DNA from: a virus
Length of the DNA: 64,000 nt
IMG/VR virus record: IMGVR_UViG_3300006224_000008
Location: 9,571-73,570 of that record
Reading direction: 5' to 3' (one strand)
Made by a program: the position numbers and the translations under genes. How positions within the stretch are numbered: the first letter of the stretch is position 1; every line of letters starts with the position of its first letter. Below the pieces are notes generated by a model, which saw only the letters and a program-made list of their open reading frames with translations, was not told where the DNA came from and did not search any database. Positions 1 through 14,664 of the stretch are shown here, one piece after another.

Positions 1-3000
1 AGATCGCCAGCAATCCCGTAGTCCAGAAAGCTACAGAATTTGTGGGCGAGCAGGCCGCGCTGAACGCGTACATGACGGCAACGGCGTCGCCGGAACTGAT
101 GCGCTTGTGGCGCGAGAACCCGGAAGAGGCCAAACGGCAGATCGCGGATATTGTCGGGGTGAACCTGGGCTTCGCGCTTCTAGGCATAGGCAACTGGCGC
201 AGGAGAGTGCCGAGTCACACGGAACGTTACCTCGCGGCGAACCAGAAGAGGTACGCGGACCTTACCGACATGCTGATTACGCGGGCAGCGGTCGGCCCCG
301 AAGCGCAGCGTGAGATTGAAGCCACGATAAAAGCCCGCATGCTGCACTGGACCGGCGACATTGGCATCGGCCCGAGAACGACTCCGCCACCGTTGGTGGA
401 CAGAACCATCGAGGAAGCACAGAACGCACTTCTGCCGCCCGCACTAAGGCCGCAGGCGTTGCCTCCGGCATTGCCTCGCCCAGCGGTGCCGCCACGATTA
501 CCAGGGAATGAACCCCTGTTGACGCCGGAACAGCAAGATCGCGTCGAGGCACGAATGCGTGCCGATGATGCTGCACGACAACAAGAGAAAGGACCTTATG
601 CCCCTCCAGTCAGGATCGAGCCGCCAAGTGGTGTCCAGCAATATCCGGGAACTCCACAGCGGGAAAACGTACCGCCATACCCTCCGGAAGTTCGGCCGGA
701 AGCGGGCGAACAAGCAGGCCGTGGCTATAGCATTGAACGAGGCGGGGCTGTCCCGCCGGAAGCGCCGCCACCTGAGCCTCAAATCCTGACATCTGAAAGC
801 GCCAGATCCATCGACGAGTTTCCACCTAGCCAGCAGGAACTAGACGCGTTGCGTGAGAAGATAATGGCCGGAAGGCCGGAGGGCCTCACACCAAGAGAAA
901 AGGAAGTACTCGATTGGCAGAAGCGACAATCTGAAAATCTGCGGCTACTCTCCCCGGAAAACGCGGCCAAGCTTTCCGAGAAAGATTTTGAGCGATGGGC
1001 ATACCCTAGGTGGACCGAAGAGCCGATCAGCGTCTCCGACGCAAAGGATGTATTTGAAATCCTGAGCGCGCTACTGATGAGAGGGGCTGATCGGATGAAC
1101 ATTAGGAAAGTTGCATCGATCCTAGCCTACAATGTCCAGCGCGAGACTGATCCGGCCATACTGCGGAAAATGTTTGAAAGAAGCGGAGATCCGTACACCG
1201 AGGAAGAGATACAGAAAACCGCAGAGGCCAACGAGGAACACAATCGGGCCACTGCTTCATATGTCGAGGCTGGCCGGGCCGCGCTCGCCGAAAAAGGCAA
1301 AACGCCCGCGCCGCCACCTGAGCCTCAGATAAGAGGTCCGAAACGACCCGAGGACCTCACACCAGAGGACGGGATTCCGTACCTACTTAACCGACTTGGC
1401 AACGTTGAACGGTTGGTCAGTTTTGGCCCCAAGGCCGACCGCGATCTATTCGAGAAAGAACGGCAGAATATCCTGTGGGAATTATACTCACTCGACCGGC
1501 TGCCAGAAACCTACGTCAAGCAGGGCAACAGGTGGGTACAGGCGCGACCTGAGCCTCAGATAAAAGCCCCAGAATCTCCCGGCTTGATGCCGGAGTCAGC
1601 CAAGCCAATCGACTGGAAAGTCGAACTCCAGGCGACCATCGCGGACATGCGGAGACGAATTGCCACGCGTGAGGAAGTGTCTGGCGCAATTGCCCAGGTA
1701 CGCCAGCCGTTGGTAGATGAGGCGTTCCGAAAAACAATCGAAGCGTGGGATGCGGTTGAGAAGGAACCGGATCCTTTCAAGAAAGTACAGTTGCAGAGTC
1801 TCGCACGGAAGGCCGACGACGATGCAGTCAAGTTCTTCTCCAAAGAGCAGAAGGAAACTGTTTTTCGCCGCATGATCGACGGGGAAGAACGTGTACAAGC
1901 TGCATGGGAGAAGTTCAATCTGGACTCCGTGCCAGAGAACGTTCGGGGAATCAGAATGCGGCCAACTGACCCCGAAAAAAGGTGGTTCTATCTCATCACG
2001 CCGTCCACCTATCCCGACCAGAAGGGGAAATGGCAGGCAACGAGAATCGATGAGAGGGGACCATTCGGGCATTTCAACGCAGATACGCCTCAGGATGCTG
2101 TTGCGTCCTTGAGTGGTAGAACCGTTAAGGGAATTGGACCCCCTTGGGGATCCGTTGGAGAATGGGTAGTTGAGCGCGCAGAGCGCATACCGAAAGGTGG
2201 TGAAGCGTATGCCAAAGAAGAAAGGGTGCAAGGGCCGCAAGAAGTAGGCCCACAACCAGTGTTGCCCCCGGTCGAACCCGGAGGTAAAGTATTGCCGAGT
2301 CCAGAAGCGGTCCAACCTATCACCGTCCGCACTGCTACCGGTGGCGAGATCTCCCAACCGCGCAGCACCGAAGGGGAAAAAGCTCCTGAAATGACGGTGG
2401 GCGAGGCCCCAGGTCAAGCTGTTCCTCGCACCGCTTCTGAACTCGCTGCTCTCATAGCTGTCGCCAAGAGGGTTGAAAGCCGCGACCGCCAGCTCTACGA
2501 ACAGATCAAGTTCTCCGGCAACCCCAGAGCCGCAGCAAAAGCGCGTGCCGCATGGCGCCAGACCAAACTCAATGTACGCGAACTCCAGCGGGAACTGAAA
2601 GCCCTCAAAGGCCCGAAAGGCATAGACATCAGCAAGCGCATGACGGCGGACGTTGGCGGGGAACGGATGCCCGACATCATTGATGACATCCTTGCCAATG
2701 TCGGCACGAAACTGTCTCTCGACTCCGCCAAGCAATACATGGAGGACATTGAGGAGAGGCTGAAGCGCGGTGGGGCCGCAGCCAAGTTGTTCACGCGAAA
2801 AGGCGGTCTCGCAATCGACGACGCCTTGGCCATGCTGATCGAGGCGAATCCGAATTACCGGCGACTGGAGACCGAGTACGATTTGCTGGATGCCATATTC
2901 GGCGCAGCCGAGAAACGGAAAGGCGCTAGGAAGGGCGAAGTTCGGGAAGAGCAAGTTCTGTCTGACAGGGAACGCCAGACGATAGATTTTGAAGAGGCCG

Positions 3001-6000
3001 CATTGCGCCAACGTGCCGACACTGAAGGAGTAAAAGCGGATACCCTCCTCATCGGCACCAAGTTCAAGTTGAGGGATGTTGAGTTTGAAGTGCAGGATCT
3101 GATCTTCGATGACAACGAGAACCTGCTCTTTGTCGTAGTTGAAGATGGCAAACGGTTTGGCACGCAACGCGTCGGCGCCGACTGGTACATTTTCCCGGAC
3201 AAAGGCTCCCTTGAAAGGAAGGAGGCAGAAGTTGAATTCGTCTCGCCAGAGGAAGCGGCGGCACCGGAGGGGCCAACCCCTGAGTGGCGACGCCTTTTTG
3301 ATGAGGAAAAGATAACCGGAGCCCAGGCGAAGACATTGCGGGCCATCGAGGCGGATACAGAATCAATCCGCCAGATACCAGTCGGAGGAGAGACCGAAAC
3401 TTATGTCCGATTCAAAAACGGTGTCATAAAGTGGGTCACGAAAACGGGGGAACTCGCGGAGACCAGCCGGGCAGATGAGGCGTTCCCATCGGAAGAAGGG
3501 GCAACGACCCCGCCCGTATCCGTTTCTAGGGCGAATCTGATCTGGAATGCTGTCGCGGCATATCTCGAATCGATTCGCGCAATCGGCGCGCCATCCGACG
3601 CTGTAATTCAAGGTGTCATGGAAATAACCGGACTGGACAGGGGTGAGGTCGAGCCCGCGTTGGAAACGTTGAAATATGAAGGCAAAATCGAATGGCAAAA
3701 GAGGTTGCCGCAGCAAATCAATCTCATCCAAAGACCCCCTCCCGCCCCTGCCGCCGAACAGCCCCCTGTGGAAGGTGTTCCAGAGAGAGGACCAGCTCCG
3801 CCAGTTGCGCCTCCATCCCCGCCTAAACCAGCAGGCCCGGCACTGGACCTGTTCGGTCAACCTATAGCCCCAGAGAAACCGGCCGCGCCCGAACCGCCGA
3901 AGGGTCCGCAAGAGATCCAAGGCGGACTTGAAATCGGAACGGTGCCCTCCGGGGAACCTGCGGTAAAAGAGCGCCCCCTGACAGCGGCAGAGAAAAAGGA
4001 ATTTCGGGCTCTCAGTCTCAAGCTCAGGGCCAACCGCGAAGAAGGCGGTGAGGCGCTGACAACTGAAGAGGCCCAGCGCTATGAGTACCTCGGAGCATTG
4101 GCGGGACAGAAGACGCTTGGAATCGATGTCCAGGTTGGGCTAAAGGGCAAACTAAAAGCGCTTGTGGCCCAGCTTGCATCACTTGACCAGCGGAAGCCGC
4201 AGTCCAGAGGTAAACGTTATGACAAGTGGGCACTCGACCGCAGCGACATCGAACGCCAGATAAAGAAGATTCGCAGTCAACTCACCGAAGGCCAGGGCGA
4301 AGATCTGGGCACTTCCGGACCACCAGAAGAAATGCCCAACGGCATGTTCATGCAGAGGCGCCGACGCGTCCGACAGATGACCGACGAGGAAGTACGCGAA
4401 CGCTGGCCTGACCCCGGAGAGCGCTTGGACGTGTTTCGCCTCTATGGAGAGCGACCATGGGTGGCTGAGTCCAGAACGATGGAGTTCTCGGATGCGTTCG
4501 GAACGCAACTGGAGGAAACCGGTGACTGGTACATTGCCGCCTGGGGTAAGAGTCGCGATGAAGCGATAACTGAGGCGCAGCGGCAGAAGCGGAAAGGTTG
4601 GGAGAATCTGCCGGAGAAGAAGCCGGAACCGCCGCCTGCCATCTGGGCTAAGGAGCTATGGCAACTGACACGAAAGGAACTTGGCGACAACCGCGAGTTG
4701 CTTAGGCCGAAACTGGGCGTTGTCAGCGACACGATGCACCGGGATGCTGTTGCGCAGGCCATTCGAGACGGCAAGCCGGTACCGCCCGAGGTCCTGGCTG
4801 ATTTCCCTGAACTCGCGCCCAAGCCCGAGGCTCCGCCACCAGCTCCAGCAGCCCCGGCAAAACCCGAGTTCGCTGGTGGCGCCCCAGAAGGTGCCCGTGT
4901 GGGCAATTACCTCAAGAAAGATGGCCGCTGGTACCGTGTCGATGCCGAGGGGAACCTTGGCAAGATCCCGACCAACAAAAAGCAGCACGACCAGCTTGAG
5001 CAGGAGTTCGCCTCGCCAACCCCTGCGGACACGCGCACGCCGATTGAGATTCTCGCCCAGGCAAAGCGCGTCAGCGTGAAGTTGCCCGAGGGTGCCACTG
5101 TGTTGCGCGGGTATGACGCGAAGGGCCGGAAGTCGGACATTTTCATCGCCAACATCAACAAGGGCGACAACATTTTCCGTGACGCTGGCATCGTTCGCGT
5201 CGAAGCCGGGTTCATCAACAAGGACAAGCAGTTTAAGCCAATCAAGGGCGACATCAAAGTTTCCGAACGCAAGCCAGCGAGGGAGGGAATGCTGCCGGAG
5301 ACTGAGCGGCAAGCGCTACCGGAGAAGCCCCCTGGCGCTCCTATCCAGATGAGCGGCAACGACGGGTTTCTGATCCCGCCGCTGGAGACTGGGCCGCGTG
5401 AGGGGCTGCCCGCGTTCCACGGCACACCGCATGAGGTGGACAGATTTCAATTGAAGTACCTGGGTACCGGCGAAGGTGCGCAGGTCTTTGGATGGGGACT
5501 CTATTTTGCAGAGGCGAGAGAAGTTGCTGAGAGATACAAACAGTCTCTGAGCGGTGGGGAACCGAGGTCATCCTATCGGTTCAATGGAAGGGAGGCATGG
5601 GAATGGCAGCGTGATTTTGAAAAGGCGATGGAGTATGACAAAGCATCGGTGTGGGAGAGGATACAACTGCACCATCCAAAGAACGCAATACGTGTAGCTG
5701 CTAGGGCTATCATCACGGACGATGCTGAAAGCGCTGCCAAACTGCTAAAGTACATCGAGACACTCCCGGATAGTTTATTCGCCAAAGAACGGGGCAACAT
5801 CTACACCGTTGACATCGCCGAGGATTCCATACTGCTCGACTGGGATAGGCCGCTTCGAGAGCAGCCGCAAGCCGTGCGCGCCGCGCTGGCAAGACTGGAA
5901 GAGCAGGGCGATCCACAGGGGACATTACACGCTCTGAAAGCTGTTCTTGCAGAGCACCTGACTGGTTCAGACTTTTACCGCCGCCTCGAAGCTCTGCGCG

Positions 6001-9000
6001 GGGCCAAGTGGGCGAGCGAAGCGCTCCAGTCCGTAGGCATCAACGGCATTCGATACCTAGACCAGAAAAGCAGGGATTTTATAGTCCAACACAGACCATC
6101 AGACGGAAAATGGTACGTCCTTAGCGGCAAGCCGTCCCCCGGTTTCGCTACAGAACGCGAAGCGCGTGATTGGGGATATGAACAGAGTTCGCGCAACTAC
6201 GTTATCTGGGACGAGTCGAAGATCCGCATCACTGAAAAGAACGGCAAGCCAGTTTCCCTCGATGAGTTTCGACAGGCCATGCCCCCCCGCGAAGGCGAAG
6301 CGGTTCCTAGCCGCGACGTGATTCTCGCCCAGGCCGATTCTCCTGAGCAGTTGCTGGCGCACGTTGACCGCCCGGAGCTTCAGATTCCGGCCGAGATGAA
6401 AGCGCTGGTCAAAGCGCTTCTCAGTCATCCCGTCGCCAAGAAAATACAGGGATTACGCTGGGCGATTGCTGATGTGCTTGCCGGTGGATTCGAGGGCGAC
6501 TTTGATCCTCATGGCCGTCTGGCGCGCTTCTCGCGCTGGGCTGAAGTTAAGGCGCCTGTTCACGAGTTTCTCCATGACCTCTGGTACTTTCTGCAACCGG
6601 GCGAGCGCGGCGAGTTCATGGCCATGCGCGTTGAAGAGATTCGCAAGGCCCTGAAAGACCTTCCGCGTAACGCAGCGGAGATCGCCGCTCTGGAAAAGCT
6701 GCTGGAAGCACCTGTGACATCCGAGGAGTTCCTCGCACTGAAAATGCCGCGGTCACTTTACTGGCTGGCAAACGAACGCGAGTTCTTCGTGAGTGCGATG
6801 CAGGAACCCCTCGTGAAACGTCTCACGACGCCGGAAGCGCAAGGTGCGATTGCCAAGGTCCGCGAGTACATCAAAGGCTTGTGGGATGCATTCAAGGATT
6901 GGACGAAACTATCCCCCAAAACCGAGAGACTCTTCCGCCAGATTTTCGAAGGCAAATACGAGTTCACACCGGAACAAGGGGCGGCGGCAGAGGCACGGGA
7001 GGGGGCGTTGCCCACGAGTCCTGAGGAGTTCAGAAAACAGAAGCGCCTTCTGGAACCGAACGTTGCTGGCAGAACGCTGGCAGGTTTCGCTGAGCCAGCG
7101 AAGATGAAAATGGAGCTGGCCGACCAGTTCAACCTGTCACCGCGGGCGCGCCGGATGATACGGCTGCCGCGTGAGGCGGAGATGTACAGCATCGCGGCGG
7201 GCGAATTGACCGGTATCGAAAATTATGTCCAGGCCAGAGACGCAGTTCCGAAGGATAACCCACATCTGCGTTGGGGAGTGACGCATGATGCCATAACGGG
7301 TATTGATTTTCAGGAGCACCTTGGCAGGACTCTTACGGCCACATACGAGCGGCAGTTAGCCAAGGTGGATTCACCAGCTTTCCAACAGAAGATCTTCCGC
7401 GAAGCACAGCTTGCACTCAGGTCCGACCTCGCCGCCGAGAAAGAGGAAACCTTCCGGAACATCATCGCTGGGAAGGCCGCTGCACTGGAAGCGCAAATCC
7501 GCAATGCCGCCGGTGACGACGCACGCATCGAGACGCTTCGGGAGGACCTACGATTGACGCGTCCGCTGATGGACTGGGCCATGGCTGTGTCCCAGCAGAT
7601 GGACAACATCGTCAATCGCGTGTACCGCGAGTACACGGAGTTCGGTCGCGCAGGTTACTGGACGCGCTGGCGGGAGAATGCGACGGGGCCGAAAAACGCA
7701 GAAGAGTTCTTCCGCCTCTATCAGCGTGCACGAGCGGCCGAAGGCAATCCCCTCGTCGAACGCCAGGAAGTGGCCCTTGCGCGTCTTGCATCCGAAATCC
7801 TGGGGATCAACTTCGGACTAGCGGACAGGTTGCTTTGGGCGGAACGGTGGCGCCGCGAGCCCGACTTTGCCAAGGCAGTGAACGAACTGGGGGAAAAGTT
7901 CGTAAAGGATCTGCGCACGGACCCGGCCAAAGCCATTCGGGGCATGATAACTCGCGAAGGCACGCTCGCCACAAGAGCGTGGCAGGCGAAGACAGCCTAC
8001 CTCGCCATCAATCGGGACGTGATGCGGGAACTGGAACTCCTTGGCGATCTGGAACAAGCCGCGACGGTGATGAAACGCCTCCGCGATTCGGATCAATGGA
8101 AGCAACTCGTCAACACCGTCATCACTGACGCGGAAGGCGAAGGCGTTCCTGCTGTGGTCGTCGATGCGATGCGCGCCGGAAAGTATTCCTCCGCTTTTAA
8201 CGAAGGGACCGGTAAACAAGTCTGGGTCGATCCGAAAGGTGGGTTCCACGAGGTTGATCTGAACTGGACCCCGGACAAGGCTGTTGAAGCGCAAAAGAAA
8301 ATAGACGGCTTCCTGACAGCCGTGAACGACTGGATCTACGACGATGCCAACGCGAACAGCCCCGAGCTGGCGTATTGGCGGCAACAAGCTGACTGGGTGC
8401 GCGCAGTCTACAAGACGGCCTCGGTATTCGCTCCGAGCGCGGTGAAAAGTTTGTTCGTCCAGCATTCGCTGACCATGCTTTCCCCGTTCTTCCGGCAAGC
8501 CAAACTACCAGCAGTGAAGGTCTTGCAGGACATGGCGGAGAACTATGAGCGTGCGCAGAATATCGGCAAGCAATGGTCTGTTGGCTTCGACCAGGACAAC
8601 ATGGACAAGGCTAGGCGCGCCGCGGAGGCGCACGGTTTCCATCCTATCTCGGAACTCCCGCTGTATCGTTCAAACATTTTTGATTCGCTGGCGTGGCATT
8701 ATCGGCACGGCATCGCCATCAAGCCCGGGCAGAAACTGTATGGCGTGACGGTGCTCAAGGAAGACATCGACCTGCTGAAACACCAGGGCGGTGGCCTGTT
8801 CAATCTGATAAAGCGGGCACTGCCGATTGGGCGCAAAGGCCGAGAAGCGAAGATGCAGGAGGCGCGCTTGGTTGACCAATACCTGAAGACCGCTTTCCTG
8901 ATGCGTCCCCCTCAGGAGTTCGGCGCCGAGCCAGGAACAACCGTGATGCGCGACTTCAGCACGCGTGGTGGCGGATTTGCGGATGCCGTCGGGAAAAACG

Positions 9001-12000
9001 CGATAGACGTCAAGCAGGAGGTCAAAGGCGGAAAGACTGTCGAGACCAGGGAAGTCAATCTGGATAAGTTCATGCAACTAGCCAACCTGCCGCAGTACTT
9101 CGAGCCTGTGGTGTGGCGATGGATTTCCGAACGATCGAGGCAGTATAACGATGACACCGGATTCGAACCGTTGCTGAACAAACTGCGTGATCGGATTCAC
9201 GAAGGAACAAATCCACCGAGGAGTGTTGAAGACGTTCTCGATTACATCACACGCAATTCTGAGGCTTCCCCCGAAGAGGTCAAAAAGGCCATTGTCGGCA
9301 ACATGGCCAAGGAAACGTTTTCGTATTACAGGAATTTCATCGAAAAGCCGAGTGGAAGATCACTGACCGTTCGCGCCCTTCGTGCCACGTCACAAGGACC
9401 ATTCAACACCGCGTTCGACCACGACATTGGCAGTTCCTTTTTCTACGACTACGGCATGTTCAGCACTCAGGAGGTCCGGGCTGCCGCCGTGGATGCCACC
9501 ATGTTTTACCTGGAACGCGTCGAGGCTGCCATGCGCAGTACTCTCGATGTGTACGATGAGGCCCTCAGGCAATTTCGGGAAACGAGATCTGGCAGTCCAG
9601 AGCGCAAAGCTTTGATGCAGCAAAATCGGGCACTGTTCAGGTCCGGTGATGATTTCCGGGATTATTCGGCTTTACGCGGCCAGCGCGATGAACTCCAGTG
9701 GTTCATGGAAAATCTTCCCATCTGGTCTAAGCAAAATATCTCCCGAAACGAAGGGTTGAACACCCTGTACCGGGTCATCGGAGATTCGGTCGTCAGCAAG
9801 CTGGCTGGATGGAAAACTGTGTCTCGCGTGTTTACTGGGTCTGCGGTGAAACAGGGGTTCGTGTTCAGCGCGATTGACCGGTTATACGGCACGTCCTACC
9901 TGAAATCGGCACTGTCAATGGCATTGAGCGCATACGACATCGCACTCAAAGGCCCGGCCATGTATCTGGCACGCAGGGCTGGATTGGCTGAGAAGCGGAA
10001 AGAAAAGTTCAGCGGCGTTGCCGAAGAGATCTTCCGGGAAGGTAAATTCTTCGATCCGCTCTACGACTTGGGCATGGGCACAAAAACGCCCTTGTTGAAT
10101 ACCATAAAGAACAACCTCGCCATGCCATACACGCATGGCCGTGGTTATGACCCCAAGTTCTCAACCAATGCTGGCATCGCCCTGCTTCAAAAGGGTGCCT
10201 ATCGGCTGTTATCGGGGGCCGAAACACCACTGGAAGTTTTGCGGACTATCTTCCCGACCCTCGGCTATTCAGTTGCATACGACTCCGTCGCACGTCAGGC
10301 GTTCAACGCAATCAGCGTTATAGAGCGTCAAGCCCGCAGGTCGTTCGAACTGCACGAAGAAGCTGGCACCCTGGGCCGGTTCGACCTCAACGACCCGCGC
10401 AATCCGAAAAATGTACTGCCCGCATCTGACATTCTACCTCGTGGCCTGTTTCCAAAGACGCAGACGCAGTTAGCGCAGGCTCGTGAATTGTTCAAGCGAG
10501 GTACTGACGGAGATCTGAACGATTTCGTGATGGAATTTTGGGCCAAACTCGCCAGAACGCCAAAAGACCAACGGGGCGAGGTCCATCTTCTCAGCGCAGA
10601 CGCAAAAACACCAGAGGAAGCCGCCCGCCTTCAAACCAACCGCAGTCTGGGGATTGCGGCAATTGGACTTCTGGACATCCACCATGCCGGTTTCACAAAC
10701 CGCATGTGGGTGATGCGTGGGTCTTCGATGTGGCGCCTGATGCAGCCAATCGCTGGTTGGACGTTCCAATCTACGAGGCAGTTATTTGAGTTGTTTGGGA
10801 AAAGCGCCACTGATCCCGCTTTGCGCCCCGCTGTCGCTACCGCTCTTACGGCGATCATGGTTCTGGCTGGCCTCGCTGCCATGGGCATTGGCGGTGACCT
10901 TGAGAAGCGGCTGTTTGATGAACTGGAGTGGATCATCAACAAGCGAGTCGATCCAGTCCGCTATTTCGGCATGGGCCGAGACTGGAAGGAGAACACGATC
11001 ATCGCCTTAACCGGCATCTTCACGTATATCACGGTTCTCTCCGGGTACTTGGAACGGTTGATGAGCGAGAAGGGAAATCGAACCAGTGTAACGGACCAAA
11101 TGTTCGTGCTTTCTCTGGCGAACTCCATGGTCAGGTACGTCAGCGGAGTTATTCACACGAAGGATCCGAACTACGGTCTGGCTGGATTCGTGACCCGGGA
11201 AATTCCATCCCTGAAGCCCCTAATCCGACGGACGAGCGCCAACGAAGGGCTGACCAATGTTGAAAATGCGATAACGGCGATACAACGTTTCGCGCCGAAA
11301 GACCTCATACGACAGACTACGGGCGGTTTCGGAATGCCCACTCCGACCGAACTGAGCGTTCCAAAGAACAAACTCAAAAACGCGATCTACGCGGGCGATT
11401 CTGAAGGTGTCATCAAGTACTTCGCCGAACTGCGCAATAAGGCCGTCGAACTCAAGCGCACAGAACCGTTGCGACTCGCGGCTGACATCATGCGCAGCCT
11501 CAACCCGTACACGTTGGCACTCATCGGCCATCCTACCGAAGTGCAACGTCAGGAATTGCTGGGCAGATTGAGCGACCGTGAGCGTCAGGTCATTCTGGAT
11601 GCCGAAACCAACTATCTGGCTGCCGCGCAGTTGGTTGGTGTGCAGTCCCGAATGACCCGCCAGCCTCCTGGTGGCGGCGGTGAGGCCGTCTCAGCGGCCC
11701 CTGCGTTTGGCGGCGGTTACGCCGTTGGCGGCGGTGGTGGCGCCGGGTTGCGCGGTATTACGACCGGCTACGGCGGCGCCGGTGGATTCCCTTCGGTCAG
11801 GCGAATCTCGCTTGGCCGCGCTGGTGGAGTTCCAACCGCTTTCAGGCGTATCTCAACGCGCCGGGGTCCAACCACACGGTTGCGACTCGGTGGCCGCATT
11901 GGCAGGCCCCGCCGTTACACCACGGGAAGGATAAAACTCCGGCCGCGAAGACTCGGAATGCGGCTTCGGCAGAGGGTTACGTTGCCTCGGACCCGGAGAC

Positions 12001-12017
12001 TGACACTGAGAGTCTGA
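1..12017 (+). CDS. Giant polyvalent internal-virion/ejection protein (>3990 aa, 5' end outside the window)
   Basis: The frame is open from base 3 to 12017. It has Pro/Glu-rich linkers, an ART-like domain (AFHGTPH..GTGEGAQVFGWGLYFAE..NYVIWDE, ~5412-6245), an HEFLH zincin motif (6561-6575), a long helical C-terminal half with hydrophobic segments, and an Arg-rich tail. Confidence 0.85.
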   Translation, partial: IASNPVVQKATEFVGEQAALNAYMTATASPELMRLWRENPEEAKRQIADIVGVNLGFALLGIGNWRRRVPSHTERYLAANQKRYADLTDMLITRAAVGPEAQREIEATIKARMLHWTGDIGIGPRTTPPPLVDRTIEEAQNALLPPALRPQALPPALPRPAVPPRLPGNEPLLTPEQQDRVEARMRADDAARQQEKGPYAPPVRIEPPSGVQQYPGTPQRENVPPYPPEVRPEAGEQAGRGYSIERGGAVPPEAPPPEPQILTSESARSIDEFPPSQQELDALREKIMAGRPEGLTPREKEVLDWQKRQSENLRLLSPENAAKLSEKDFERWAYPRWTEEPISVSDAKDVFEILSALLMRGADRMNIRKVASILAYNVQRETDPAILRKMFERSGDPYTEEEIQKTAEANEEHNRATASYVEAGRAALAEKGKTPAPPPEPQIRGPKRPEDLTPEDGIPYLLNRLGNVERLVSFGPKADRDLFEKERQNILWELYSLDRLPETYVKQGNRWVQARPEPQIKAPESPGLMPESAKPIDWKVELQATIADMRRRIATREEVSGAIAQVRQPLVDEAFRKTIEAWDAVEKEPDPFKKVQLQSLARKADDDAVKFFSKEQKETVFRRMIDGEERVQAAWEKFNLDSVPENVRGIRMRPTDPEKRWFYLITPSTYPDQKGKWQATRIDERGPFGHFNADTPQDAVASLSGRTVKGIGPPWGSVGEWVVERAERIPKGGEAYAKEERVQGPQEVGPQPVLPPVEPGGKVLPSPEAVQPITVRTATGGEISQPRSTEGEKAPEMTVGEAPGQAVPRTASELAALIAVAKRVESRDRQLYEQIKFSGNPRAAAKARAAWRQTKLNVRELQRELKALKGPKGIDISKRMTADVGGERMPDIIDDILANVGTKLSLDSAKQYMEDIEERLKRGGAAAKLFTRKGGLAIDDALAMLIEANPNYRRLETEYDLLDAIFGAAEKRKGARKGEVREEQVLSDRERQTIDFEEAALRQRADTEGVKADTLLIGTKFKLRDVEFEVQDLIFDDNENLLFVVVEDGKRFGTQRVGADWYIFPDKGSLERKEAEVEFVSPEEAAAPEGPTPEWRRLFDEEKITGAQAKTLRAIEADTESIRQIPVGGETETYVRFKNGVIKWVTKTGELAETSRADEAFPSEEGATTPPVSVSRANLIWNAVAAYLESIRAIGAPSDAVIQGVMEITGLDRGEVEPALETLKYEGKIEWQKRLPQQINLIQRPPPAPAAEQPPVEGVPERGPAPPVAPPSPPKPAGPALDLFGQPIAPEKPAAPEPPKGPQEIQGGLEIGTVPSGEPAVKERPLTAAEKKEFRALSLKLRANREEGGEALTTEEAQRYEYLGALAGQKTLGIDVQVGLKGKLKALVAQLASLDQRKPQSRGKRYDKWALDRSDIERQIKKIRSQLTEGQGEDLGTSGPPEEMPNGMFMQRRRRVRQMTDEEVRERWPDPGERLDVFRLYGERPWVAESRTMEFSDAFGTQLEETGDWYIAAWGKSRDEAITEAQRQKRKGWENLPEKKPEPPPAIWAKELWQLTRKELGDNRELLRPKLGVVSDTMHRDAVAQAIRDGKPVPPEVLADFPELAPKPEAPPPAPAAPAKPEFAGGAPEGARVGNYLKKDGRWYRVDAEGNLGKIPTNKKQHDQLEQEFASPTPADTRTPIEILAQAKRVSVKLPEGATVLRGYDAKGRKSDIFIANINKGDNIFRDAGIVRVEAGFINKDKQFKPIKGDIKVSERKPAREGMLPETERQALPEKPPGAPIQMSGNDGFLIPPLETGPREGLPAFHGTPHEVDRFQLKYLGTGEGAQVFGWGLYFAEAREVAERYKQSLSGGEPRSSYRFNGREAWEWQRDFEKAMEYDKASVWERIQLHHPKNAIRVAARAIITDDAESAAKLLKYIETLPDSLFAKERGNIYTVDIAEDSILLDWDRPLREQPQAVRAALARLEEQGDPQGTLHALKAVLAEHLTGSDFYRRLEALRGAKWASEALQSVGINGIRYLDQKSRDFIVQHRPSDGKWYVLSGKPSPGFATEREARDWGYEQSSRNYVIWDESKIRITEKNGKPVSLDEFRQAMPPREGEAVPSRDVILAQADSPEQLLAHVDRPELQIPAEMKALVKALLSHPVAKKIQGLRWAIADVLAGGFEGDFDPHGRLARFSRWAEVKAPVHEFLHDLWYFLQPGERGEFMAMRVEEIRKALKDLPRNAAEIAALEKLLEAPVTSEEFLALKMPRSLYWLANEREFFVSAMQEPLVKRLTTPEAQGAIAKVREYIKGLWDAFKDWTKLSPKTERLFRQIFEGKYEFTPEQGAAAEAREGALPTSPEEFRKQKRLLEPNVAGRTLAGFAEPAKMKMELADQFNLSPRARRMIRLPREAEMYSIAAGELTGIENYVQARDAVPKDNPHLRWGVTHDAITGIDFQEHLGRTLTATYERQLAKVDSPAFQQKIFREAQLALRSDLAAEKEETFRNIIAGKAAALEAQIRNAAGDDARIETLREDLRLTRPLMDWAMAVSQQMDNIVNRVYREYTEFGRAGYWTRWRENATGPKNAEEFFRLYQRARAAEGNPLVERQEVALARLASEILGINFGLADRLLWAERWRREPDFAKAVNELGEKFVKDLRTDPAKAIRGMITREGTLATRAWQAKTAYLAINRDVMRELELLGDLEQAATVMKRLRDSDQWKQLVNTVITDAEGEGVPAVVVDAMRAGKYSSAFNEGTGKQVWVDPKGGFHEVDLNWTPDKAVEAQKKIDGFLTAVNDWIYDDANANSPELAYWRQQADWVRAVYKTASVFAPSAVKSLFVQHSLTMLSPFFRQAKLPAVKVLQDMAENYERAQNIGKQWSVGFDQDNMDKARRAAEAHGFHPISELPLYRSNIFDSLAWHYRHGIAIKPGQKLYGVTVLKEDIDLLKHQGGGLFNLIKRALPIGRKGREAKMQEARLVDQYLKTAFLMRPPQEFGAEPGTTVMRDFSTRGGGFADAVGKNAIDVKQEVKGGKTVETREVNLDKFMQLANLPQYFEPVVWRWISERSRQYNDDTGFEPLLNKLRDRIHEGTNPPRSVEDVLDYITRNSEASPEEVKKAIVGNMAKETFSYYRNFIEKPSGRSLTVRALRATSQGPFNTAFDHDIGSSFFYDYGMFSTQEVRAAAVDATMFYLERVEAAMRSTLDVYDEALRQFRETRSGSPERKALMQQNRALFRSGDDFRDYSALRGQRDELQWFMENLPIWSKQNISRNEGLNTLYRVIGDSVVSKLAGWKTVSRVFTGSAVKQGFVFSAIDRLYGTSYLKSALSMALSAYDIALKGPAMYLARRAGLAEKRKEKFSGVAEEIFREGKFFDPLYDLGMGTKTPLLNTIKNNLAMPYTHGRGYDPKFSTNAGIALLQKGAYRLLSGAETPLEVLRTIFPTLGYSVAYDSVARQAFNAISVIERQARRSFELHEEAGTLGRFDLNDPRNPKNVLPASDILPRGLFPKTQTQLAQARELFKRGTDGDLNDFVMEFWAKLARTPKDQRGEVHLLSADAKTPEEAARLQTNRSLGIAAIGLLDIHHAGFTNRMWVMRGSSMWRLMQPIAGWTFQSTRQLFELFGKSATDPALRPAVATALTAIMVLAGLAAMGIGGDLEKRLFDELEWIINKRVDPVRYFGMGRDWKENTIIALTGIFTYITVLSGYLERLMSEKGNRTSVTDQMFVLSLANSMVRYVSGVIHTKDPNYGLAGFVTREIPSLKPLIRRTSANEGLTNVENAITAIQRFAPKDLIRQTTGGFGMPTPTELSVPKNKLKNAIYAGDSEGVIKYFAELRNKAVELKRTEPLRLAADIMRSLNPYTLALIGHPTEVQRQELLGRLSDRERQVILDAETNYLAAAQLVGVQSRMTRQPPGGGGEAVSAAPAFGGGYAVGGGGGAGLRGITTGYGGAGGFPSVRRISLGRAGGVPTAFRRISTRRGPTTRLRLGGRIGRPRRYTTGRIKLRPRRLGMRLRQRVTLPRTRRLTLRV
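598..789 (+). CDS. Small basic phage protein (63 aa) nested in the +1 frame of the giant gene
   Basis: MPLQSGSSRQVVSSNIRELH..KQAVAIAL resembles the widespread phage MPLKKG..NI..KQAVAIA family as I recall it. SD-like GAGAAAGGA at 585-593. Confidence 0.75.
   Translation: MPLQSGSSRQVVSSNIRELHSGKTYRHTLRKFGRKRANKQAVAIALNEAGLSRRKRRHLSLKS
762..1563 (+). repeat. Three copies of ACCTGAGCCTCARAT (PEPQI linker) inside the giant gene
   Basis: Copies at 762-784, 1308-1330 and 1547-1563. The first two share 22 of 23 nt. Confidence 0.85.
2209..2247 (+). CDS. Nested 12-aa Lys-rich micropeptide MPKKKGCKGRKK (+1 frame)
   Basis: Strong SD-like GAAAGGTGGTGA at 2192-2203, ATG at 2209, TAG at 2245-2247. Confidence 0.45.
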   Translation: MPKKKGCKGRKK

Positions 12018-12511: not shown

Positions 12512-12872
12512 GTGCCCGCCGTTCCTCGTTTTCGCACTGGCCAGACGTGGTACCGATAAACGACCGAAATTTGATGACATCGTGAAGGCATCCGGCCTGT
12601 CGGAGCGCACGTTCATCCGAATCGCATGTCGTTTTTCGTGGCGCGAGGTCAAGGTGAAGCACATTGACGGCTTTTGCCGGGCGTGCGGGGTAGACCCCTT
12701 CAATCTCGAACCGCACCTGGGGTTCCTGAGACGGTCACTGACATCGGACAAACCTTTCGCCTACATGACCTCGCAGCAACTGGCGAGGTTCAATGACCAT
12801 TGTAGTCGGATTGCCGATTTCGCGAGGGCTACGGTTTCTGGAGCGCCATCGCGTCAAAGTCAATCTTCATGA
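12474..12872 (+). CDS. Putative HTH DNA-binding protein
   Basis: DDIVKASGLSERTFIRI is an HTH-like pattern. ATG 12474 was chosen as the start. Confidence 0.55.
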   Translation: MHTPTNLLGLLDKCPPFLVFALARRGTDKRPKFDDIVKASGLSERTFIRIACRFSWREVKVKHIDGFCRACGVDPFNLEPHLGFLRRSLTSDKPFAYMTSQQLARFNDHCSRIADFARATVSGAPSRQSQSS

Positions 12873-14664
12873 GGTAAGCACTCCCACCAACTGCCGCAGT
12901 CCCGGTCGAACTGGAAATCATGATCTCGAAATAGATGTGCCGACCCTCCACGTACATCGGCCATTCGCACCCTTCCGACTGCCTTAACTTCTGGGATGTC
13001 AAATTTGTATTGGTGAATTCCTCCTCGCAGCGAAGGTCCTTGTTTTCGTAATCGTTCCACTGGGGAGAACACTTTGGAGCCGTGCTATTGGGGTCTGTCC
13101 TGTTCCATGAGTGCCCAAGGCGCAGCCGGATCACTGGCGGCGTGGTTTCCTCGATGGTCTCACGGTCAACGTACACCTGTTGCACTCGTTTCTCCCGGTC
13201 GTAAAAGCCTAATGGCGCTTCCGCCCGGAGAATCGATACGTAACCATCGCTGCGGTACAGGGTACCGATTAGGGCGTCAACCGGCAGGTCCACCGTGACG
13301 TTCGACATATCGTCGATGATCAGGAACTCGCGGTAGTAGGAGCCCCCGATGTTTTTGATTGCGTAATCCACGCCGCTCGCACCAAAGAAATACTGGGTCT
13401 CGTTGCACACGCCCGCGGCCGTAGGCGTATCCCGGAAGTTCGTAAAGGCCGTAAAACCGGTGTCAACCACGTCCGCCGTCTTTTGCTTAATGTTCGCAAC
13501 CATCGTCCAGTTGTTGACGGAGAGAGTCCCGCTGGGCCAGCTAAACCAGATCTCATCCTTGCTGGGCAGGAGTGCTGCGACAGGTGCGTAGCAGTGCGTG
13601 CCACCCATGGCTGTTGCTTGGTCGGTAAACATCACGCCGGTTGACAGGTGCAGCCAATCGACGCGTTCCGGTTTTGGAATGTAGGGATCGAATCGGTACA
13701 CGCCTTCCCGGCTGCAATACCAGTGCTCAGAGCCGGTGCTTACGAGTGTCTCCGGGTAGAAGAGGCAACCTACCTGATTCTGCGGCTCGCTATAGATCCG
13801 AGTGAACGTGAAAACCTCGTCAGCAGTGAGCGTGCTTGGCGTCATCTTCCAGATGCTGCGCCGCGTGTAGATGTAGACGTCTCGTAGAATGTGCGCGGCG
13901 CCAAGAATGTCGTCGCCGTAGGGCAAGTCCTGAGTCCCGCAAAGCGGCTCGACCTCCGGTGGATCGGCATCGGGATCGAAGTAAGGGTCCCACGCCATTC
14001 CGTCGTTAATGTCCGACCACGCGATACGTGTTGGCTGCGCCACCCCATCCTGCACCACGTTCATCAGGACGAGAAATCCGTTAAACTCGATGGCGATTTT
14101 CGCCGCTGTGATTTTGATCGTGGTTTTTAGCTCACTAACCTCGGTTGTGGTGCCTGCCGCGAGGTCGTGTGCCAGAATGTTGTTCACACCATTCGTGAAG
14201 TACAACACGTTCTGGAGTTGGGCGGCCTTCCATCGGCTTCCGTACGCACCGTAAGCAACATCAGGAAGTTGAATGTCGGTCCAATGTCCCGTTGTGGTGT
14301 TCAGCTTCGAAAGCCTGCTCTGCGTGCCGTCAAACAGGATGCGTTGCCCGCTGTCGGTCGTGCATTCGTGGAGAAACGTTATCGGTTCGCGTGTGGCACC
14401 CTGGGCATGATGGTCGTGATTGTGGTAATACCACCCGCTGCGGTCATCACTTTGCTCAATCGGAACACCCCACTGGTCGTACAATTTCGAGGCAAATGGA
14501 TGCTCAAAACCGGCACGTCGTTTCAACCTGCCGTCGCTGGTGGCCTCCATGTTGAGTTTCCAGCGCCACGCCCCCGGTTGAACCTCGGTGGGGTCCGACC
14601 GCACGTCCAGCGGGCCGGTCAGCGGATGGAGCGAGATCGTTGACCAAACATCTTTCTTAGCCAT
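12829..14664 (-). CDS. Tail nozzle / head-stabilisation protein (P22 gp10 / T7 gp12-like)
   Basis: 611 aa. N-terminal LDVRSDP..LNM..G.LKRRAG and RIAWSD motifs, beta-rich, last gene of the morphogenesis operon. Confidence 0.65.
   Translation of the reverse strand: MAKKDVWSTISLHPLTGPLDVRSDPTEVQPGAWRWKLNMEATSDGRLKRRAGFEHPFASKLYDQWGVPIEQSDDRSGWYYHNHDHHAQGATREPITFLHECTTDSGQRILFDGTQSRLSKLNTTTGHWTDIQLPDVAYGAYGSRWKAAQLQNVLYFTNGVNNILAHDLAAGTTTEVSELKTTIKITAAKIAIEFNGFLVLMNVVQDGVAQPTRIAWSDINDGMAWDPYFDPDADPPEVEPLCGTQDLPYGDDILGAAHILRDVYIYTRRSIWKMTPSTLTADEVFTFTRIYSEPQNQVGCLFYPETLVSTGSEHWYCSREGVYRFDPYIPKPERVDWLHLSTGVMFTDQATAMGGTHCYAPVAALLPSKDEIWFSWPSGTLSVNNWTMVANIKQKTADVVDTGFTAFTNFRDTPTAAGVCNETQYFFGASGVDYAIKNIGGSYYREFLIIDDMSNVTVDLPVDALIGTLYRSDGYVSILRAEAPLGFYDREKRVQQVYVDRETIEETTPPVIRLRLGHSWNRTDPNSTAPKCSPQWNDYENKDLRCEEEFTNTNLTSQKLRQSEGCEWPMYVEGRHIYFEIMISSSTGTAAVGGSAYLMKIDFDAMALQKP

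What the first reader, a model, noticed from the sequence alone, without database searches (positions are those of the whole stretch)
598..789. A real-looking basic protein gene hidden in the +1 frame of the giant virion gene
Seen: SD GAGAAAGGA, ATG at 598, and a 63-aa K/R-rich product with NIRELH and KQAVAIAL. The giant protein is a low-complexity P/E/Q linker over this stretch. Recalled: this pattern matches a common free-standing small phage protein family. Inference: a fully overlapping gene that standard annotation would miss, possibly a DNA-condensing core peptide co-expressed with the ejection protein.
Basis: partly seen in the sequence, partly recalled or inferred. Interest (0 to 1): 0.75.

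Follow-up and report, generated by a model that had tools for sequence, protein, structure and literature searches.

The report
Hidden small gene inside giant phage gene
A complete 63-codon gene for a very basic small phage protein lies in a second reading frame inside a 4210-codon virion protein gene, and the same hidden arrangement recurs in many unrelated uncultured phages, where gene callers missed it.

Summary
ORF 598-789 is frame +1 of a 4210-aa polyvalent-type virion gene. It encodes an intact member of a conserved small-protein family (phrog_2423, E 9e-10). The family is related to Pfam DUF6496, though the window's protein scores below that cut-off. Homologues reach 72% identity.

The same gene sits nested in a 776 to over 4180-aa ORF in 15 further distinct viral or metagenome loci. 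The relative frame is the same in all of them, although the carrier proteins fall into at least 7 groups with no BLASTP similarity to each other.

In the overlap the small frame carries the selection (pN 0.24, pS 0.68). The giant frame only stays open (pN 0.37, pS 0.22). Ten of 16 nested starts have a strong Shine-Dalgarno site, and no frameshift site was found. In the window's record and in 5 of 5 near-complete records searched, the nested copy is the only copy. Ten of 10 nested proteins are absent from a 15-billion-protein catalogue.

Elsewhere the module is free-standing, or is the N-terminus of prohead proteases and polyvalent proteins. AlphaFold2 predicts a three-helix fold (pLDDT 92.6), and the pI is 12.

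I found no evidence of expression and none of function. The closest known architecture is lambda Rz/Rz1. No paper found describes this case.

The parts
598..789 (+). Nested gene: 63-aa basic three-helix protein (phrog_2423, DUF6496-related), in frame +1 of the giant gene
   Evidence: In a codon-usage log-likelihood scan the +1 frame turns positive only in the four 120-nt windows starting at 525-645.
585..593 (+). Shine-Dalgarno-like GAGAAAGGA, 4 nt upstream of ATG598, embedded in the giant's coding sequence
   Evidence: Anti-SD pairing is -5.3 kcal/mol, rank 0.20 within the giant ORF. It is much stronger in 10 of 16 nested loci (for example AGGAGG in L014, L025, L029, L080 and L124).
1..12017 (+). 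Giant virion (polyvalent-type) protein gene. It starts 615 nt before the window (G000:C1:8955) and encodes 4210 aa in all. The nested gene begins at its codon 405.
   Evidence: Weak ART-PolyVal match (19.7 bits, below the cut-off of 31.2). Codon-usage LLR is positive in this frame on both sides of the overlap. A phrog_3287 virion structural gene is the adjacent convergent gene at 12832-14664.
597..788 (+). Pro/Glu/Gly-rich acidic linker of the giant protein, encoded by the same nucleotides as the nested gene
   Evidence: P 17, E 8, G 7 of 64; pI 4.7. This frame evolves as a passenger (pN 0.37, pS 0.22).
766..804 (+). First of three copies of the PEPQI-encoding direct repeat of the giant gene. 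It supplies the non-conserved C-terminal tail and the stop of the nested gene.
   Evidence: copies at 766, 1312 and 1543. The family-conserved core ends near residue 50.

Best explanation
Window 598-789 is a genuine protein-coding gene embedded out of frame (+1) in an inter-domain linker of a 4210-aa polyvalent-type virion protein gene. Shown by comparison: the small frame is the one under purifying selection, and the giant frame across it is kept open but is otherwise a passenger. Inferred: ribosomes start internally on the giant gene's mRNA at the gene's own SD and ATG. They make a separate 63-aa, pI-12, three-helix protein, while ribosomes that began at the giant's start read the same nucleotides as an acidic Pro/Glu/Gly linker. 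Also inferred, from the family's other architectures (free-standing, or the extreme N-terminus of prohead proteases and of ART/LPD/NUDIX polyvalent proteins in virion modules): the module works inside the head, and needs a free N-terminus (M-P invariant). Possible roles are docking cargo proteins, binding the packaged DNA, or binding the portal. The need for a free N-terminus would explain why it is kept as a separately initiated frame rather than as an in-frame internal domain. I put about 0.85 on 'real, selected, separately translated nested gene' and about 0.35 on the head-internal or DNA-associated function.
For: - Family membership: phrog_2423 E 9.1e-10. 21 homologues of 54-70 aa, up to 72% identity, E 1.4e-16. 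In the 22-sequence alignment M1, P2, I16, E18, L19, G22, G33, A37, Q40, A43, I44 and A45 are invariant, and all are present in the window's copy.
- Recurrence: 12 of 73 viral loci are nested (11 distinct). Of the 72 metagenome loci examined, 7 are nested and 4 of those are new. Every one uses the same relative frame. The carriers fall into 7 BLASTP-unrelated groups among 12 loci.
- Real domains lie on both sides in the giant frame: in L027, SLT and InPase upstream, LPD1 and a helicase downstream.
- Selection: in 55 pairs of 11 nested loci, small-frame pN is 0.24 and pS 0.68, giant-frame pN 0.37 and pS 0.22. Small-frame aa identity exceeds giant-frame identity in 55 of 55 pairs. The small protein is the best conserved part of each related pair.
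- Start: ATG or GTG in all 16 nested loci. SD pairing is in the top 10% of the locus's own giant ORF in 10 of 16.
- No X_XXY_YYZ heptamer lies near the 3' end in 15 of 15 loci.
- Single copy: 1 place in the window's genome, and 1 match in each of 5 records that are 95-100% complete.
- Codon usage: the +1 frame scores positive only in the overlap.
- Fold: pLDDT 92.6, three helices.
- Context: the module is the N-terminus of the head maturation protease in Acinetobacter phage AB1. 327 longer proteins carry it, among them ART-PolyVal, LPD23 and NUDIX proteins. In all 150 listed representatives it starts within the first 56 residues.
Against: - No evidence of expression of any kind was found: no RNA-holding run was listed, and no proteomics was available.
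- The window's own SD is only moderate (rank 0.20). Six of 16 nested loci have SD pairing no better than typical positions in their ORF (ranks 0.19-0.55).
- One nested locus (L124) has an in-frame stop at codon 10 of the small gene.
- Synonymous differences are near saturation, and the loci are not independent samples.
- The 56-column tree cannot tell one origin from several (10 changes, but a single origin is not excluded).
- The window's protein scores below Pfam's cut-off for DUF6496 (17.9 against 24 bits).
- One longer protein (P0088) carries the module in frame at residues 1504-1560, so a free N-terminus is not universal unless that copy too is started internally.
- Function rests on context only. 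Foldseek found no match in the PDB at E<=0.001 (16 rows at E<=10). The best VIA match (7wmp_A, N-terminal 53 residues of a KHP30 tail-complex chain, Z 6.9) is within the range the tool calls common for helical models.
Confidence: 0.8

Rival explanations
1. The small frame is not expressed as a separate protein. Ribosomes that start at ATG598 shift -1 near the end of the small ORF into the giant frame, making a module-plus-downstream-giant isoform with the same architecture as the naturally fused proteins.
For: In-frame fusions of the module to the N-terminus of polyvalent proteins are common (327 longer proteins; DUF6496 at 7-52 plus ART-PolyVal at 222-286 in P0070). The 1683-aa fused protein of L028 is homologous to giants 2011-2313 of the window's protein (24% identity, E 3e-12). 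Going from the small frame to the giant frame is a -1 shift.
Against: No canonical X_XXY_YYZ heptamer lies in the 3' part of the small ORF in 15 of 15 nested loci. The only two heptamers found are at codons 6 and 22. The stops lie at varying distances after the core, and the tails are unconserved, as at real termini. Free-standing forms are the majority (83 of 113 distinct cores), so the module works on its own.
Confidence: 0.05
2. The nested ORF is a non-functional relic or hitch-hiker: a small gene swallowed when two neighbouring genes fused, still intact by chance or recency.
For: L124 carries a stop at codon 10. The window's SD is modest. There is no expression evidence.
Against: 15 of 16 distinct nested loci keep the full ORF and all family-invariant residues, while their carrier proteins have diverged beyond BLASTP recognition. 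Substitutions follow the small frame's codon positions: entropy is 0.65, 0.47 and 1.04 at positions 1, 2 and 3, and pN 0.24 is far below pS 0.68. The nested copy is the only copy in the window's record and in 5 of 5 near-complete records searched.
Confidence: 0.04
3. The giant ORF is not one gene. The real arrangement is upstream gene, small gene, downstream gene, and the long frame is open across the small gene by accident or assembly error.
For: The giant-frame stretch over the overlap is low-complexity and evolves like a non-selected frame. In free-standing loci the small gene does sit between separate genes.
Against: There is no stop in the giant frame anywhere from G000:8955 to 21587. That frame is open in 16 of 16 nested loci, against 5 of 41 free copies. 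Codon usage supports the giant frame on both sides, with no other coding frame upstream. Pfam domains lie on both sides in one frame in L027. Contigs of three runs are identical over window 1-3000. Without a stop, the upstream ribosomes must read through.
Confidence: 0.04

Closest known systems
Lambda Rz/Rz1 two-component spanin genes (embedded architecture)
   Same: A small gene lies wholly inside a larger phage gene, with its own start. The +1 frame of Rz1 is recalled, not seen. [quoted passage not shown] Here the forms are nested, free-standing and fused.
   Different: The proteins and the function are unrelated (lysis versus virion module). The carrier here is a giant multidomain protein, and the overlap falls in an inter-domain linker. 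The small gene is the older, conserved partner and the carrier frame is the passenger. Physical interaction of the two products is not shown here.
Pfam DUF6496 (PF20106) / PHROG phrog_2423 small proteins of unknown function
   Same: Length, the KQA(V/I)AIA motif and the basic character. phrog_2423 matches at E 9.1e-10. 44 of 72 family members match DUF6496 at E<=0.01. Atlas neighbours are viral clusters in which 11-13% of members carry PF20106.
   Different: The window's own protein is below Pfam's gathering score (17.9 against 24 bits). The phage branch has an invariant MP N-terminus and an I(R/S)E(L/F)H motif. No function is described: 0 papers hold 'DUF6496'.
Polyvalent proteins of phages (Iyer et al. 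2017, PMC5512222)
   Same: The carrier genes are giant multidomain proteins encoded among virion genes. They carry ART-PolyVal, InPase, LPD1, LPD38 and helicase domains, as that paper describes for proteins packaged in the head and injected (passages).
   Different: The main text of that paper contains neither 'overlap' nor 'frameshift' (0 occurrences each). In the passages I saw it does not describe this N-terminal module. Its supplementary alignments were not seen.
Overlapping genes of small phages (phiX174 B in A, E in D; recalled, no call)
   Same: Out-of-frame genes wholly contained in another gene.
   Different: There the nested gene is thought to be the novel, overprinted one in a very compact genome. 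Here the nested gene belongs to an old, widespread family, and the genome (73.6 kb) is not under comparable size pressure.

Membership tests
phrog_2423 (PHROGs v4) | Significant match to the family HMM | tested here: met
   E 9.1e-10, 39.4 bits, two stretches. The family HMM also finds this one place in the whole record.
Pfam DUF6496 (PF20106) | Whole-protein score at or above the gathering cut-off of 24 bits | tested here: not met
   17.9 bits, E 0.004 for the 63-aa protein; 17.3 bits for the 76-aa form. Relatives do better: 44 of 72 match at E<=0.01, best 5.6e-7, and P0070 scores 24.4 bits. It is a related branch, not a certified member.
The MPLKKG...NIRELH...KQAVAIAL phage small-protein family (alignments A1/A2) | Full length, with all columns that are invariant in the family | tested here: met
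   M1, P2, I16, E18, L19, G22, G33, A37, Q40, A43, I44 and A45 are all present. Identity to 21 homologues is 48-70%.
Embedded (nested, out-of-frame) gene, Rz/Rz1-type architecture | ORF wholly inside another gene's ORF in a different frame | tested here: met
   598-789 lies inside 3-12017, in frame +1. The same is seen in 15 other distinct loci.
Embedded (nested, out-of-frame) gene, Rz/Rz1-type architecture | Own start codon and ribosome-binding site | tested here: inconclusive
   ATG or GTG in 16 of 16 loci. The SD is strong in 10 of 16, but in the window it is only -5.3 kcal/mol, rank 0.20.
Embedded (nested, out-of-frame) gene, Rz/Rz1-type architecture | Both products are made and act together | not testable with these tools
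   No RNA or protein data. No RNA-holding run was listed.
Polyvalent protein (the carrier gene) | Several effector or LPD domains in one polypeptide, encoded among virion genes | tested here: inconclusive
   In the window only ART-PolyVal is found, at 19.7 bits against a cut-off of 31.2. Its ART region is homologous to certified ART-PolyVal proteins. Carriers in L027 and L041 pass cut-offs for InPase, LPD1, SLT, helicase and LPD38; 7 of 9 carriers scanned have no Pfam match.
-1 programmed frameshift site | X_XXY_YYZ slippery heptamer in the upstream frame near the junction | tested here: not met
   0 of 15 nested loci have one in the 3' part of the small ORF.

The most novel reading that the evidence does not exclude
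The nested gene and its carrier are a functional pair. The small basic protein would be the dedicated head-loading or ejection adaptor (or chaperone) of the giant polyvalent protein. It would be made in cis from the same mRNA, and would perhaps bind the acidic Pro/Glu linker that the very same nucleotides encode in the other frame (pI 12 against pI 4.7). That would make this a second Rz/Rz1-like class of embedded partner genes in tailed phages. It would also give a handle on how half-megadalton effector proteins are packed into and expelled from capsids.
Probability: 0.12. Interest if true: 0.85.

Novelty: new variant of a known kind. Interest (0 to 1): 0.7.

Why it matters
Embedded genes are textbook rarities in tailed phages. 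Here an old, widespread small-protein family is repeatedly hidden inside the largest genes of uncultured phages, and none of the 10 nested copies I looked up is in a 15-billion-protein catalogue. This shows a systematic blind spot of gene callers. It supplies a rare case where the nested gene, not the carrier, is the conserved partner. It also links an uncharacterised DUF to head-internal cargo proteins: prohead protease and ART/NUDIX/LPD polyvalent proteins. That linkage makes the module a testable candidate for the still unknown route by which giant injected proteins are loaded into capsids or accompany the DNA.

Tried and rejected
- **Genomic context of the database homologues:** I used the search for related loci instead, as the error message advised.
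- **Close relatives of the window's giant gene, for an unsaturated dN/dS:** a viral-contig scan with window 792-2399 found none (0 of 18 candidate stretches). Laid contigs showed no variants. Selection therefore had to be measured on distant loci.
- **Expression:** no RNA holder was listed. Only DNA contigs were laid.
- **Fold-based function:**
  - Foldseek against the PDB gave no match at E<=0.001.
  - BFVD gave only uncharacterised small phage proteins, all weaker than E 0.05.
  - VIA wide gave 7wmp_A at Z 6.9 as the top row, which is not distinctive for a helical model.
  - The KHP30 tail paper was not among the 6 of 9 papers listed.
  - A sequence profile against PDB chains gave a best E of 0.069.
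- **-1 frameshifting:** rejected for lack of slippery sites.
- **One or several origins of nesting:** the tree of 113 cores is unresolved.
- **Complex prediction:** not used. No specific partner region of the giant protein could be justified.
- **Literature:**
  - 'DUF6496': 0 papers.
  - Polyvalent protein / overlapping gene / phage: nothing relevant in the 15 listed. Passages of PMC13299392 were irrelevant.
  - Nested gene / overprinting / virion protein: 8 listed, none on this.
  - Supplementary files were not opened. The supplementary alignments of PMC5512222 could hold this module under an LPD name.

**Rows dropped:**
- One search examined 72 of the 80 metagenome loci. The 8 whose match did not begin at residue 1-2 were left out.
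- One search used 11 of the then 12 distinct nested loci. L072 was dropped for an indel in the core, and L053 is a duplicate of L052.
- One search left out L124 (interrupted ORF).
- One search left out L124 and all identical cores.
Full report
**Observation.**
- The window opens inside a very long + strand ORF (3-12017). In the full 73,570-bp virus record this ORF starts at an ATG 615 nt upstream of the window and encodes 4210 aa.
- In frame +1 of it, ATG598 to TGA789 gives a 63-aa protein, MPLQSG...NIRELH...KQAVAIAL.... It has 16 K+R, 2 D+E and pI 12.0.
- GAGAAAGGA lies 4 nt upstream. Its anti-SD pairing is moderate: -5.3 kcal/mol, and 20% of positions in the giant ORF do as well.
- The giant frame over these nucleotides is Pro/Glu/Gly-rich and acidic (P 17, E 8, G 7 of 64; pI 4.7).
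- Contigs of three runs from three studies are identical to the window over 1-3000. Any of them may be the source sample.

**It is a real family member.**
- The peptide matches phrog_2423 at E 9.1e-10. It matches Pfam DUF6496 below the cut-off (17.9 against 24 bits).
- The 5.8-billion-cluster search gave 21 proteins of 54-70 aa, up to 72% identity, E 1.4e-16. In their alignment twelve columns are invariant, and the window's copy keeps all of them.
- A profile of 72 members finds 2110 cluster representatives at E<=0.001, of which 190 are at E<=1e-10. 44 of the 72 match DUF6496 at E<=0.01.
- AlphaFold2 gives a confident three-helix model: pLDDT 92.6, helices 9-20, 23-32 and 34-62.
- No informative structural neighbour was found. 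Foldseek had no PDB match at E<=0.001. BFVD returned only uncharacterised small phage proteins. The VIA top row was the N-terminal 53 residues of a chain of the KHP30 tail complex at Z 6.9, inside the range the tool calls common for helical models.

**The nesting recurs.**
- Of 73 viral-contig loci that encode the family, 12 have the small gene wholly inside an ORF of 776 to over 4180 aa (11 distinct, since L052 and L053 are near-identical).
- Of the 72 metagenome loci examined, out of 80 fetched, 7 are nested, and 4 of those are new: L080, L118, L124 and L129.
- Counting the window, that makes 16 distinct nested loci. In every one the carrier is read in the same relative frame (small gene = carrier +1).
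- Among free-standing copies the corresponding frame is open over the core in only 5 of 41 (mean 2.3 stops), and the other alternative frame in 7 of 41. Neither the openness nor the choice of frame is therefore expected by chance.

**The carriers are real, continuous genes.**
- Among 12 loci they fall into 7 groups with no BLASTP similarity to each other. Against the window's giant, three foreign carriers match only in the overlapped stretch.
- Upstream parts are homologous within groups: 40-46% identity over about 460-510 aa in L010/L025 and L041/L062.
- L027 has SLT and InPase domains upstream of the nested gene, and LPD1, AAA_34/ResIII and Helicase_C_4 downstream, all in one frame. L041 has LPD38. 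Seven of the 9 carriers scanned had no Pfam match.
- In the window, codon-usage log-likelihood supports the giant frame before and after the overlap. The +1 frame is strongly negative everywhere except in the four 120-nt windows starting at 525-645, where it turns positive.

**Which frame is selected.**
- Over the 47-codon core, 55 pairs of 11 nested loci give pN 0.24 and pS 0.68 in the small frame, against pN 0.37 and pS 0.22 in the giant frame.
- Small-frame amino-acid identity (mean 0.67) exceeds giant-frame identity (mean 0.36) in 55 of 55 pairs. Column entropy is highest at the small frame's third codon position.
- The small protein is the best conserved segment of each related pair of loci. 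The small gene is thus the constrained partner, and the carrier frame is kept open but otherwise follows.

**How it is probably expressed.**
- All 16 nested copies begin with ATG or GTG at the family's M1. Ten of 16 have anti-SD pairing in the top 10% of their own carrier ORF, several with AGGAGG (Fisher combined p about 1e-10; the loci are not fully independent).
- No canonical -1 slippery heptamer lies in the 3' part of the small ORF in 15 of 15 loci. The tails and stop positions vary.
- I therefore favour independent internal initiation giving a separate small protein.
- The family HMM finds only this one place in the window's record. The profile finds exactly one match in each of five nested-type records that are 95-100% complete. 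In these phages the nested copy is the only copy.

**What it may do.**
- Of 113 distinct cores, 83 are free-standing, 15 fused and 15 nested.
- Fused forms put the module at the extreme N-terminus of longer proteins:
  - the head maturation protease of Acinetobacter phage AB1, next to the head protein genes, and similarly annotated genes in many Obolenskvirus records and in BcepB1A;
  - proteins of about 180-310 aa that follow a phrog_3287 'virion structural protein' gene;
  - polyvalent proteins with ART-PolyVal, LPD23 or NUDIX domains.
- The L028 and L092 fusion proteins share their ART region with the window's giant.
- In all 150 listed representatives the module begins within the first 56 residues. 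One exception seen elsewhere is P0088, where it lies in frame at 1504-1560 with its Met retained.
- These contexts point to a head-internal or ejection-linked role that needs a free N-terminus. The pI of 12 is compatible with DNA binding. None of this is shown directly.

**Evidence against, and limits.**
- No RNA or protein evidence exists here.
- The window's SD is modest, and 6 of 16 nested loci have unremarkable SD pairing.
- L124 has a stop at small-gene codon 10.
- Synonymous sites are near saturation.
- The tree cannot decide between one origin and several.
- No close relative of the window's carrier was found.

**Comparison with what is known, and novelty.**
- The architecture resembles the embedded Rz/Rz1 spanin genes, whose components also occur in embedded, overlapped and separated forms (abstract of PMC6139136).
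- The carriers are polyvalent proteins in the sense of Iyer et al. 2017. That main text holds no 'overlap' or 'frameshift'. The passages I saw do not describe this module.
- No paper in the library holds 'DUF6496', and two further searches found no description of such a nested gene.
- Ten of 10 nested small proteins looked up are absent as exact sequences from the 15-billion-protein collection. A free-standing one is present: P0007 equals the small protein of L013.
- I class this as a new variant of a known kind: an embedded gene, but with the old conserved gene as the guest and a giant injected protein as the host.

Noticed in passing
window 766-804, 1312-1350, 1543-1581: Three direct repeats encode PEPQI in the giant frame, with start-to-start spacings of 546 and 231 nt (both multiples of 3). 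The first copy supplies the tail and stop of the nested gene. In frame +1 all three read ...LSL(K/R) followed closely by a stop, and so end three successive +1 ORFs (598-789, 1132-1332, 1396-1563).
   Followed up: partly
L124:6001-6147: A nested copy with a strong SD (CAGGAGG) but an in-frame stop at codon 10 of the small gene. The rest is intact and conserved. It could be a sequencing error, a recent loss or read-through.
   Followed up: partly
L149:685-830 and L154:804-950: Two contigs where the family gene switches frame mid-way. After the break the read-on frame spells the Glu/Gly-rich 'carrier-like' sequence. These are probably indel errors in those assemblies. L149 has stops in the carrier-equivalent frame and neither was flagged as nested.
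   Followed up: partly
P0083 (171 aa): The module (residues 1-58, 53% identical to the window's protein) is fused to a complete ribosomal protein L20 domain (61-158, Pfam E 4e-40).
   Followed up: no
P0088 (1732 aa), residues 1504-1560: The module is in frame inside a long InPase-bearing protein, with its Met-Pro-Leu start retained. This may be an in-frame internal-start variant of the same theme.
   Followed up: partly
fused forms in L006, L007, L015, L028, L034, L061, L064, L092, L093: About 8-14 residues after the AIAL motif, most fused proteins share a short (A/M)-x-G-G motif (for example RAEGG, NMGG, RAMGG). It may be a processing site or a hinge.
   Followed up: no
window 2209-2247: A 12-codon ORF, MPKKKGCKGRKK, in the same +1 frame behind GAAAGGTGG. 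It echoes the family's MPLKKG start but is too short to evaluate.
   Followed up: partly
window 12832-14664 (-): A homologue of phrog_3287 'virion structural protein' (E 4.5e-28) lies just after the giant gene's end. In L007 and L028 the same family is encoded directly upstream of the module-bearing gene.
   Followed up: partly
L037:9988-10488 and L074:9994-10833: Open stretches of 172 and 279 codons in the carrier-equivalent frame cover the whole small gene but start only a few nt upstream. They may be short overlaps with the downstream gene. I counted them as free-standing.
   Followed up: no
G000:C1:2346-5522 (upstream of the window): A 1058-aa protein with methyltransferase (phrog_21658, E 2e-25) and glycosyltransferase (phrog_2170) matches lies in the same + strand block as the giant gene.
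   Followed up: no
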